From IMG/VR virus record IMGVR_UViG_2740892272_000003: a stretch of 7,570 nucleotides of DNA; one strand, given 5' to 3'. The DNA is from a virus (taxonomy: Duplodnaviria; Heunggongvirae; Uroviricota; Caudoviricetes). The number at the start of each line of letters is the position of its first letter. Position 1 is the stretch's first letter. Positions 5,483 through 5,713 of the stretch are shown here, piece by piece. The notes below the pieces were generated by a model, which made no database searches, was not told the origin of the DNA, and was given only the letters and a program-made list of their open reading frames with translations. A program made the translations under genes and the position numbers.

Positions 5483-5512
5483 CCCCGTTACTTTATTCGT
5501 ACCCCTTATAAT

Positions 5513-5700
5513 GGGGTGTTAGCCAGCCAGACCCGGCATGATTACTGCCCCCAGTCGTCCATGATCCGGGGGGTGATGTCACCGGGTCTGGTGGGGCGCT
5601 GGTAACCGCTAATAGGGGTCAGGTCAGGCACTTTTGCCGGGACCGTCTGTAACGTGGATGCCGGTACCTGCTCCCCGTGGTTATCTGGTTAACCCATATA
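5513..5700 (+). ncRNA. Candidate IS110-type bridge (guide) RNA in the element left end
   Basis: About 200 bp of GC-rich non-coding sequence with several local inverted repeats (for example GGTGatgtCACC and GGCActttTGCC) lies between the left-end -10 box and the transposase RBS. It contains an internal copy of the right-end 9-mer TAATAGGGG. Assignment is by analogy with IS621, where the left end encodes the bridge RNA. Confidence 0.3.
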
Positions 5701-5713
5701 CAAGGGAGACAGA

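What the first reader, a model, noticed from the sequence alone, without database searches (positions are those of the whole stretch)
5483..5713. Long structured non-coding left end of an IS110-family element: candidate bridge RNA
The transposase at 5714..6910 has IS110-family DEDD and Transposase_20 signatures. About 210 bp of GC-rich, hairpin-rich non-coding DNA precedes it, while the right end is only ~20 bp. This architecture matches the IS110 subgroup (IS621 being the characterised example), where the left end encodes a structured RNA with separate target-binding and donor-binding loops that programmes the recombinase. Nothing here would be picked up by ORF-based annotation. The guide loops, if present, would reveal this element's preferred target and donor sequences.
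Basis: partly seen in the sequence, partly recalled or inferred. Interest (0 to 1): 0.75.

Follow-up and report, generated by a model that had tools for sequence, protein, structure and literature searches.

The report
Bridge RNA gene of ISEc20

Summary
Window 5483-6935 is a copy of ISEc20, an IS110-family element in the IS110 group, inserted in a run of C upstream of a prophage holin gene. The 231 bp before the transposase ATG are non-coding. They are 70-82% identical in about 80 relatives from Burkholderiales, Enterobacteria and Actinobacteria.

These left ends fold into a 5' hairpin plus two stem-loops with internal loops. On 31 sequences, 22 of 54 pairs change on both sides, 95% of cells are paired, and no shuffle reaches that. 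The loops hold four guide segments in the IS621 arrangement:
- UGCCCCC matches the left flank in the same sense.
- GGGGGGUG is complementary to the right junction CACCCCCC.
- AAUAGGGG matches the right end in the same sense.
- GUAACGUGG is complementary to the left end.

Orthologues with altered ends or flanks carry matching changes in the guides. The right end has a conserved TTGACA. In the modelled circle it lies 17 bp from TACTTT in the left end.

It is not new: Durrant et al. 2024, Supplementary Table 5, lists ISSfl4/ISEc20 with a bridge RNA detected in the left end. What I add is the guide map, the poly-C target and an unexplained 3-C difference between junction classes. No transcript was tested.

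The parts
5483..5486 (+). CCCC at the left junction. It is target-side or core bases, or captured C's. The exact crossover cannot be placed inside the run.
   Evidence: It is the first shared base of all copies. It covaries with the left target guide in T-type orthologues, CCTC with CCUC.
5487..5491 (+). GTTAC, the right donor half-site (RD), at the start of the mobile DNA.
   Evidence: It is invariant in 58 orthologues and complementary to the guide at 5649-5653. The L006 deletion junction GGGGCAC|GTTACC places a crossover immediately 5' of it.
5489..5494 (+). TACTTT, the candidate -10 box of a promoter formed only in the circular form.
   Evidence: It lies 17 bp from TTGACA (6916-6921) in the modelled junction GGGGC-AC-GTTAC. 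The orthologues have TACTAT, TACCTT or TACTTT. This is inferred, not tested.
5501..5517 (+). 5' stem-loop ACCCC-UUAUAAU-GGGGU, with a perfect TATAAT (5507-5512) in the loop.
   Evidence: Folding. Three of its 5 pairs change on both sides (helix 1).
5522..5597 (+). First stem-loop with an internal loop, read as the target-binding loop domain.
   Evidence: RNAalifold and pair counts: the basal helix has 7 of 14 pairs with changes on both sides. It lies within the model hit 5522-5677, 151.9 bits.
5544..5552 (+). ACUGCCCCC, the left target guide. It has the same sense as the left flank plus core.
   Evidence: It matches left junctions such as yecD ATGCCCCC and L093 ACTGCCCCC. In orthologues, L048 matches 9/9, L079 has AACCCUC for AACCCTC, and L067 has GUUCCUC for GTTCCTC. 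The permutation test gives p=0.03.
5564..5575 (+). AUCCGGGGGGUG, the right target guide plus core complement. Its reverse complement is CACCCCCCGGAT.
   Evidence: It matches the window's right junction CACCCCCC (6934-6941). L073 matches 12/12. It covaries in the T-type orthologues (CACTCTCA), in L047 (CACAAGGTG) and in L032 (CACACCCC). The permutation test gives p=0.0007.
5598..5677 (+). Second stem-loop with an internal loop, read as the donor-binding loop domain.
   Evidence: The basal helix has 7 of 9 pairs with changes on both sides, and the apical helix also covaries.
5611..5621 (+). AAUAGGGGUCA, the left donor guide. It has the same sense as the right end AATAGGGGCA.
   Evidence: It covaries with the right end: L048 and L050 have ATAGAGGCA in both, L073 and L015 have ATAGGGAC in both, L047 has ATAGGAGC in both, and L057 has GGGGCC in both.
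5649..5657 (+). GUAACGUGG, the right donor guide plus core complement and two handshake-like G's. Its reverse complement is CCACGTTAC.
   Evidence: It matches the left end CCCCGTTAC at 8 of 9 positions and is invariant in nearly all orthologues. It also matches 8/9 the mdtA pseudo-site TTCCGCGTTACC used in the L006 deletion.
5703..5708 (+). AGGGAG, the ribosome-binding site of the transposase gene.
   Evidence: Read from the sequence.
5714..6910 (+). ISEc20 recombinase or transposase gene, 398 aa.
   Evidence: Pfam and NCBIfam matches. It is annotated 'IS110-like element ISEc20 family transposase' in RefSeq copies that are 99.6% identical. Its Tnp domain matches the IS621 and ISCro4 transposases in the PDB (E 1e-14 and 3e-12).
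6916..6921 (+). TTGACA, the candidate -35 box of the circle-junction promoter.
   Evidence: TTGAC(A/G/T) is kept at the same place in all 35 distinct orthologue right ends listed. This is inferred.
6926..6936 (+). AATAGGGGC + AC, the left donor half-site (LD) and donor core, at the right end of the mobile DNA.
   Evidence: It matches the guide at 5611-5621. The boundary comes from comparison of occupied and empty sites.
6936..6942 (+). Run of 7 C, read as the right target half-site (RT).
   Evidence: Empty alleles of this site read CCCG-C6 or C7-GACAG. It is complementary to the G run at 5568-5573.

Best explanation
Window 5483-6935 is ISEc20, an IS110-family element of the IS110 group. Its left end, roughly 5501-5677, encodes a bridge RNA of about 175 nt.

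The RNA has a 5' hairpin, a target-binding stem-loop and a donor-binding stem-loop. In the target loop, ACUGCCCCC would pair with the bottom strand of the left target. AUCCGGGGGGUG would pair with the top strand of the right target. Together they specify a run of C. In the donor loop, AAUAGGGG would pair with the bottom strand of the element's right end. GUAACGUGG would pair with the top strand of its left end.

The recombinase would then exchange strands at an NC dinucleotide next to GTTAC, inserting the circular element into C runs. Here that run lies just upstream of a prophage holin gene. Transcription would start from a promoter assembled when the ends join: TTGACA from the right end and TACTTT from the left end.

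Shown here: the conservation, the RNA structure, the guide-to-DNA matches and their covariation, and the C-run targets. Inferred: that the RNA is made, that it binds the recombinase, the exact cleavage positions, and the promoter.
For: Identity and boundaries
- The element is 99.6% identical to RefSeq copies annotated ISEc20, which occur in 1597 of 5426 E. coli genomes.
- Its ends are defined by 17 copies with differing flanks.

Conservation
- The left end is 70-82% identical in relatives whose proteins are only 68-82% identical.

Structure
- On 31 sequences, 95% of cells are paired and 22 of 54 pairs change on both sides, against 6-11 with slid partners.
- The covariation score is 0.29 against at most 0.095 for slid partners, and 0 of 500 shuffles reach it.
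- The result is the same on 73 distinct sequences.
- Many conserved G-U pairs fix the + strand as the RNA strand.
- The covariance model hits only 5522-5677 on the + strand in the window, at 151.9 bits, with the next hit at 19 bits.
- It hits upstream of the ORF in 78 of 80 related loci.

Guides
- All four segments match the DNA in the IS621 strand arrangement (PMC11208158).
- Guide and DNA covary in the T-type clade, L047, L032, L048, L073, L015 and L057.
- Permutation tests give p=0.0007 for the right target guide and p=0.03 for the left target guide.

Target
- Nine empty sites all have C-rich runs at the insertion point.

Natural footprint
- In L006 the right end is joined to an mdtA site that matches the right donor guide 8/9, giving GGGGC-AC-GTTACC with a 580-bp deletion.

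Promoter
- A conserved -35 and -10 lie 17-18 bp apart in the modelled circle junction.

Literature
- Durrant et al. 2024, Supplementary Table 5, lists ISSfl4/ISEc20 with a bridge RNA detected in the left end.
Against: - No transcript, RNA-protein binding or transposition was tested.
- Rfam 15 gave no hit at E up to 1.
- The single-sequence fold is only about 2 sd better than shuffles, and no better on the + strand than on the - strand.
- The left target guide matches most natural left flanks poorly. Only the C's and often a G match, and the test gives p=0.03.
- Because the target is a homopolymer, the two target guides are complementary to each other. They could simply form a helix. That pairing is absent only in L047.
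- The crossover cannot be fixed. Junction C counts fall into two classes that differ by three C (note).
- With the longer class, which includes this window's copy, the promoter spacer would be 20 bp, not 17.
Confidence: 0.9

Rival explanations
1. The left end is only a structured 5' leader that controls transposase translation or mRNA stability. It has no role in choosing DNA sites.
For: The structure sits directly upstream of the ribosome-binding site and the ATG and is probably co-transcribed with the gene. Conserved stems alone would fit a leader.
Against: A leader does not explain the invariant loop bases. These match the element's own two ends and the flanking C run on the strands expected for IS621-type guides. 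It also does not explain why loops and DNA ends change together in L047, L048, L073, L015, L057, L032 and the T-type clade.
Confidence: 0.05
2. The conservation reflects protein-binding or recombination sites read as DNA, double- or single-stranded, at the element's end. It does not reflect an RNA.
For: The - strand folds as well as the + strand. The terminal 10-20 bp are indeed recombination substrates.
Against: Conservation and covariation extend about 195 bp inside the element. Many conserved G-U pairs would be A-C mismatches on the other strand. The covariance model scores 151.9 bits on the + strand against 19 on the - strand.
Confidence: 0.03
3. The hairpins are chance features of GC-rich DNA, and the element has no guide RNA.
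For: The single-sequence z-score is only -2.1. There was no Rfam hit.
Against: There are 22 pairs with changes on both sides and 0 of 500 shuffles reach the observed values. The slid-partner controls are far lower. Relatives in two phyla hit the model at 1e-9 to 1e-33.
Confidence: 0.01

Closest known systems
IS621 bridge RNA and recombinase of E. coli (Durrant et al. 2024, PMC11208160; Hiraizumi et al. 2024, PMC11208158)
   Same: - Both have a long left end and a short right end.
- Both have an RNA of about 175 nt with a 5' stem-loop and two stem-loops with internal loops.
- In both, the left guides have the sense of the top strand and the right guides are complementary to it.
- Both have a 5-nt right donor half-site next to a 2-nt core whose second base is fixed.
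- In both, two bases after the core complement could act as handshake guides.
- In both, a -35 box in the right end and a -10 box in the left end are joined in the circle.
   Different: - The proteins are distant. Only the Tnp domain aligns by phmmer, at E 1e-14.
- The second acidic catalytic position aligns to D65 rather than E.
- The core is (A/C)C, not CT.
- The target is a homopolymeric C run, not a REP sequence. This makes the two target guides complementary to each other.
- The target loop is as conserved as the donor loop across phyla, whereas in the IS621 clade it is variable.
ISSfl4/ISEc20 entry in Durrant et al. 2024, Supplementary Table 5
   Same: It is the same element. The table's protein row matches the window protein, and the table says 'Detected Bridge RNA End: LE, group IS110'.
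   Different: In the parts of the paper I read, the table gives only the end in which a model hit was found. It gives no guides, target or structure for this element.
ISEc21 seekRNA, IS110 type (Siddiquee et al. 2024, PMC11187229)
   Same: The non-coding region lies upstream of the transposase and encodes an RNA with short matches to both strands of the target, in IS110-type order.
   Different: It is a different clade. ISEc21 clusters with ISLxx2 and ISMch6, not with IS110, ISBma3 and ISEc20. I made no sequence comparison of the RNAs.
IS1111-group elements (IS1111, IS4321/IS5075, ISEc11)
   Same: They have a DEDD recombinase and an RNA guide.
   Different: Their guide RNA lies downstream of the gene in a long right end with long subterminal inverted repeats. 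Here the right end is about 25 bp and holds no model hit.

Membership tests
ISEc20 (ISfinder name, as used in RefSeq annotation) | Near-identical nucleotide sequence over the whole element. | tested here: met
   Window 5483-6954 is 99.6% identical to copies annotated 'IS110-like element ISEc20 family transposase'. The protein is 100% identical to L004 and to ten further copies.
IS110-family bridge recombinase system (IS110 group) | Recombinase with an N-terminal RuvC-like DEDD domain and a C-terminal Tnp domain with a conserved serine. | tested here: met
   PF01548 and PF02371 match. NF033542 scores 239 bits against a cut-off of 140. The SGSS motif aligns with that of IS621. The second acidic residue aligns as D, not E (low-confidence alignment).
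IS110-family bridge recombinase system (IS110 group) | Long non-coding left end and short right end. | tested here: met
   The left end is 231 bp and the right end about 25 bp.
IS110-family bridge recombinase system (IS110 group) | [quoted passage not shown] | tested here: met
   Searches show covariation in the basal and apical helices. The model hits 78 of 80 loci upstream of the ORF.
IS110-family bridge recombinase system (IS110 group) | Loop segments match target and donor half-sites, with the left guides in top-strand sense and the right guides complementary. | tested here: met
   All four segments were found with the expected strands and order. The arrangement is as described in PMC11208158.
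IS110-family bridge recombinase system (IS110 group) | Guides covary with the DNA they recognise across orthologues. | tested here: met
   The left donor guide shows at least 4 independent double changes. The right target guide has 3 variant types and p=0.0007. The left target guide is weak at p=0.03, though L048, L067 and L079 match 7-9 nt. The right donor guide and half-site are invariant, so they give no information.
IS110-family bridge recombinase system (IS110 group) | The same 2-nt core in donor and target, duplicated at both junctions. | tested here: inconclusive
   The second position is C at all junctions. The first is A at the right junction and C (or T) at the left. The register is ambiguous inside C runs, and there are two junction classes that differ by CCC.
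IS110-family bridge recombinase system (IS110 group) | A promoter reconstituted across the joined ends of the circular form. | tested here: inconclusive
   In the modelled junction, TTGACA is followed by 17 bp and then TACTTT. Both boxes are conserved in the orthologues. No circle junction was observed, and the -10 box matches the consensus at only 3 of 6 positions.
IS110-family bridge recombinase system (IS110 group) | The RNA is expressed, binds the recombinase and is required for recombination. | not testable with these tools
   No expression or biochemical data were available.
IS110-family bridge recombinase system (IS110 group) | A hit to a published bridge-RNA covariance model. | not testable with these tools
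   Rfam 15 gave no hit at E up to 1, and I do not know whether it holds such a family. Durrant et al. report a hit in the left end for ISSfl4/ISEc20.
IS1111 group | Guide RNA in a long right end, with long subterminal inverted repeats. | tested here: not met
   The right end is about 25 bp and there is no model hit downstream of the ORF.

The most novel reading that the evidence does not exclude
This widespread clade includes IS110, ISBma3 and ISEc20. It would be a bridge-RNA system specialised on homopolymeric C tracts.

Its two target guides (C5 and G6) are complementary to each other. They may therefore close the target loop in the free RNA. Register slip on the homopolymer would let the element capture or lose C's at its ends. 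That would explain the two junction classes that differ by CCC and the very long C runs beside some orthologues. Most natural insertions would rely on the right half-site alone.
Probability: 0.4. Interest if true: 0.45.

Novelty: already known. Interest (0 to 1): 0.25.

Why it matters
The result shows that ORF-based annotation leaves out the functional RNA gene of a very common E. coli and Shigella insertion sequence. ISEc20 is present in about 30% of complete E. coli genomes. The result also gives a usable guide map for it.

It explains why ISEc20 sits in C runs. These include coding proline tracts (yecD) and the region just upstream of a phage holin gene. It also explains at least one adjacent deletion, in mdtA.

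For genome engineering it adds little. The family's mechanism is established, and this element was already listed as carrying a bridge RNA. The homopolymer target and the self-complementary guides are a modest curiosity. They might bear on how target loops tolerate slippage and half-site matches.

Tried and rejected
- Rfam 15 at E up to 1 over the whole window gave only a spurious mir-200 hit inside the terminase gene.
- Single-sequence folding does not separate the strands.
- The promoter scan of the integrated sequence found no sigma-70 site. The candidate promoter exists only across the joined ends.
- I tried to unmask the N-run by pattern scans of viral and metagenome contigs and found no match. 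Look-ups by exact protein then found the same insertion in another genome, L096, with a direct junction.
- My first model had the C runs belonging to the element, with core CC and circle GGGGCACC-CC-CCGTTAC. I rejected it for the yecD copy L095, whose T-interrupted run fixes the register.
- A single crossover model for all sites fails. Sites fall into two classes that differ by three C (note).
- Literature searches for ISEc20, ISSfl4, ISBma3 and for homopolymer targets of bridge RNAs found nothing specific in main texts.

Full report
**What is in the window**

The minus strand of 84-5346 carries a lambdoid prophage late region: portal, large and small terminase, an HNH endonuclease, Rz, lysozyme and a class II holin. 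A run of 126 N occupies 5357-5482. From 5483 the sequence is 99.6% identical to copies that RefSeq annotates as 'IS110-like element ISEc20 family transposase'. Matches occur in 1597 of 5426 complete E. coli genomes.

The ORF 5714-6910 (398 aa) has the Pfam domains DEDD_Tnp_IS110 and Transposase_20. It scores 239 bits on NCBIfam NF033542, 'IS110 family RNA-guided transposase'. In the PDB it matches the IS621 and ISCro4 transposases only over the Tnp domain (E 1e-14 and 3e-12). It is therefore a distant relative of the characterised enzymes. The last 95 bases of the window belong to an IS911 copy.

**Boundaries**

Sixteen other ISEc20 copies with different flanks all begin to agree at CCCCGTTAC (window 5483). 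They end at AATAGGGGCA followed by a C run (window 6926-6942). In orthologues, repeat-collapsed contigs begin at the same CCCCGTTAC.

Locus L096 carries the same insertion as the window, with the same flanks on both sides. It reads ATACATATCCCG|CCCCGTTAC with nothing in between. In the window...CCCGCCCC stands before the N-run and CCCCGTTAC after it. The N-run is therefore most likely a scaffold gap at a repeat boundary. This is an inference.

Ten empty alleles of the site read CCCG-C6 or C7-GACAG. The non-coding left end is thus 231 bp and the right end about 25 bp. That is the IS110-group layout described by Durrant et al. (PMC11208160).

**Is the left end more than chance?**

On its own, barely. 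The fold is 2.1 sd better than shuffles on the + strand and 2.85 sd on the - strand. Comparison settles it.

A scan of one genome per species returned 80 loci encoding relatives of 68-100% protein identity. They come from Enterobacteria, Burkholderiales, unclassified Proteobacteria and many Actinobacteria. Their left ends align with the window's at 70-82% nucleotide identity over positions 1 to about 195.

RNAalifold on 31 of them gives two stem-loops with internal loops. With the 5' hairpin added, the pair counts are as follows:
- 95% of cells are paired.
- 22 of 54 pairs show changes on both sides, against 6-11 when the partners are slid by 1-3 columns.
- The covariation score is 0.29, against at most 0.095 for slid partners.
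- No shuffle out of 500 reaches the observed values.

Conserved G-U pairs fix the + strand as the RNA strand. A covariance model built from the two stem-loops scores 151.9 bits at 5522-5677 on the + strand, and the next hit in the window scores 19 bits. The model hits 78 of the 80 loci, on the ORF's strand and upstream of it apart from two weaker extra minus-strand hits (in L077 and L025). The two misses are contigs that start inside the ORF. The pair statistics hold on the 73 distinct sequences of that alignment. No ORF longer than 29 aa lies in the region.

**Guides**

The helices that never vary are the interesting part. I read them against the IS621 scheme. There the left guides pair with the bottom strand, so they have top-strand sense. 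The right guides pair with the top strand, and the top strand is cut just 3' of a 2-nt core (PMC11208158).

Four segments fit this scheme:
- 5611-5618 AAUAGGGG equals the right end AATAGGGG (6926-6933).
- 5649-5657 GUAACGUGG is the complement of CCACGTTAC, against the left end CCCCGTTAC.
- 5564-5575 AUCCGGGGGGUG is the complement of CACCCCCCGGAT, against the right junction CACCCCCCC.
- 5544-5552 ACUGCCCCC equals left junctions such as ATGCCCCC (yecD) or ACTGCCCCC (L093).

The matches covary.
- Right end and left donor guide are both ATAGAGGCA in L048 and L050, ATAGGGAC in L073 and L015, ATAGGAGC in L047 and GGGGCC in L057.
- The right target guide reads CACTCTCA in three Arthrobacter-type copies whose right junction is CACTCTCA. 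It reads CACAAGGTG in L047 and CACACCCC in L032, each equal to its own junction. L073 matches over 12 of 12 positions.
- In the T-type copies the left target guide also follows the flank. L079 has AACCCUC for gtAACCCTC|GTTAC. L067 has GUUCCUC for cgTTCCTC|GTTAC.

Shuffling the junctions among loci gives p=0.0007 for the right target guide and p=0.03 for the left one. These tests do not correct for shared ancestry, so the independent double changes listed above carry more weight.

After the core complement GU, the right donor guide continues with GG and the right target guide with G. These bases could pair with the last bases of the other partner, as the 'handshake guides' of IS621 do. This is an inference.

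**Target**

All nine empty sites recovered for ISEc20 copies have a C-rich run at the insertion point:
- the holin-upstream site: CCCG-C6 or C7-GACAG
- yecD: G-C5-T-C5-G
- ibsA-mdtA: TTT-C5-T-C5-TGG
- dgcE: A-C7
- a phage baseplate gene: CCACCCCTCC
- an RHS-adjacent site: ACTG-C6-TC
- hemW: C10
- yfdF: ACT-C7-TGG
- focB: TCG-C6-TTC

Most sites match the right half-site (CCCCC) fully and the left half-site only in its C's. So the effective target is a C run of six or more.

Because the target is a homopolymer, the two target guides are complementary to each other. RNAalifold accordingly draws them as a helix. In L047, whose target is not a homopolymer, that pairing is absent. This argues that these segments are guides rather than a structural stem.

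**Crossover**

The yecD copy L095 sits in a T-interrupted run, which fixes the register. Its left junction is G-C5|GTTAC and its right junction is GGGGC-AC|T-C5-G. This fits a donor GGGGC-AC-GTTAC and a target core CC.

In L006 the right end is joined to mdtA 580 bp away. The junction is GGGGC-AC-GTTACC, and the intact gene reads TTCC-GC-GTTACC there, an 8 of 9 match to the right donor guide. This looks like a natural guide-directed recombination. It places the exchange just 5' of GTTAC.

Five pure-run sites, including this window's, carry exactly three more C than that model predicts (note). I cannot explain this. Register slip during excision from a homopolymer, capturing CCC into the circle, is one possibility.

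**Promoter**

In the modelled circle junction the right end's TTGACA (6916-6921) lies 17 bp from TACTTT (5489-5494). TTGAC(A/G/T) and TAC(T/C)(A/T)T are kept at a 17-18 bp spacing in all 35 distinct orthologue junctions. Transcription would then start near 5501, the first base of the 5' hairpin. In the integrated copy no sigma-70 site is found.

This parallels IS621, but it is only inferred. With three extra C the spacer would be 20 bp. A perfect TATAAT sits in the hairpin loop (5507-5512), and a similar motif is kept in proteobacterial orthologues. It may be a weak internal promoter. IS621 is reported to express its bridge RNA weakly from genomic loci (PMC13626964).

**Comparison and novelty**

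The architecture, the guide order and strands, the 5-nt right donor half-site, the core with a fixed second base and the split promoter all match the IS621 system. The differences are:
- a distant protein
- an (A/C)C core
- a homopolymer target
- a target loop that is as conserved as the donor loop across two phyla

The claim itself is not new. Durrant et al. 2024, Supplementary Table 5, lists 'ISSfl4, detected bridge RNA end LE, group IS110, clustered elements ISEc20;ISSfl4', and the protein in that row matches the window's. NCBI already names the family 'RNA-guided transposase'. I found no text that gives this element's guides or its poly-C target. Absence from the searchable library is weak evidence of novelty.

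**Verdict**

The novelty class is 'already known' and interest is low to moderate.

Noticed in passing
window 5357-5482: A run of 126 N lies exactly between ...CCCGCCCC and the element's first bases CCCCGTTAC. The same insertion in L096 has a direct junction, so this is probably a scaffold gap at a repeat boundary. The four C's would then be present on both sides as an overlap.
   Followed up: partly
window 7476-7570: This is the left end and the start of orfA (MKKRNFSA) of an IS911 (IS3-family) copy. The prophage region is therefore hit by at least two insertion sequences, as is typical for Shigella-like genomes.
   Followed up: yes
L006:2390-2440, compared with L099:161-800: In this E. coli copy the ISEc20 right end is joined to mdtA with loss of about 580 bp. 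The junction is GGGGC-AC-GTTACC. The intact mdtA site TTCCGCGTTACC matches the right donor guide 8/9. This looks like a guide-directed adjacent deletion.
   Followed up: partly
ISEc20 junctions in L004, L089-L096 and the window, compared with empty sites L084-L086, L097, L098, L100-L109, H52, H58, H64: Junction C counts fall into two classes that differ by exactly three C. The counts are a+b-1=e at yecD, ibsA-mdtA and the baseplate site, and a+b-4=e at five pure C runs including this window's site. This is unexplained.
   Followed up: partly
L057, L042, L073 (right flanks): Some actinobacterial orthologues are followed by very long C runs, about 45 C in L057 and 13 C in L042. L073 has a repeated CCCCCCGGATGCC unit. 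This hints at expansion or repeated use of the target tract.
   Followed up: no
L047:945-1101 and its right end: An Acidimicrobiales orthologue has a retargeted first loop. Its right target guide is the complement of CACAAGGTG, which equals its right junction, and its left donor guide ATAGGAGC equals its right end. It is a natural example of reprogramming within this clade.
   Followed up: partly
L077:827-1145: There are two bridge-RNA model hits head to head, 84 bits on the minus strand and 56.5 bits on the plus strand. This suggests two abutting or nested copies in Glutamicibacter.
   Followed up: no
window 5507-5512: A perfect TATAAT lies in the loop of the 5' hairpin, and proteobacterial orthologues keep GATAAT or TACAAT there. 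It could be a weak -35-less promoter for the integrated copy.
   Followed up: no
window 5526-5529 and 5560-5563: Both target guides are preceded by CAUGAU (GGCAUGAUU and CCAUGAUCC), which is invariant across orthologues. It is possibly a protein-recognition motif of the loop.
   Followed up: no
window 1569-1643 (-): A weak Rfam mir-200 match (25 bits against a gathering score of 86) lies inside the terminase large-subunit gene. It is a chance hit.
   Followed up: yes
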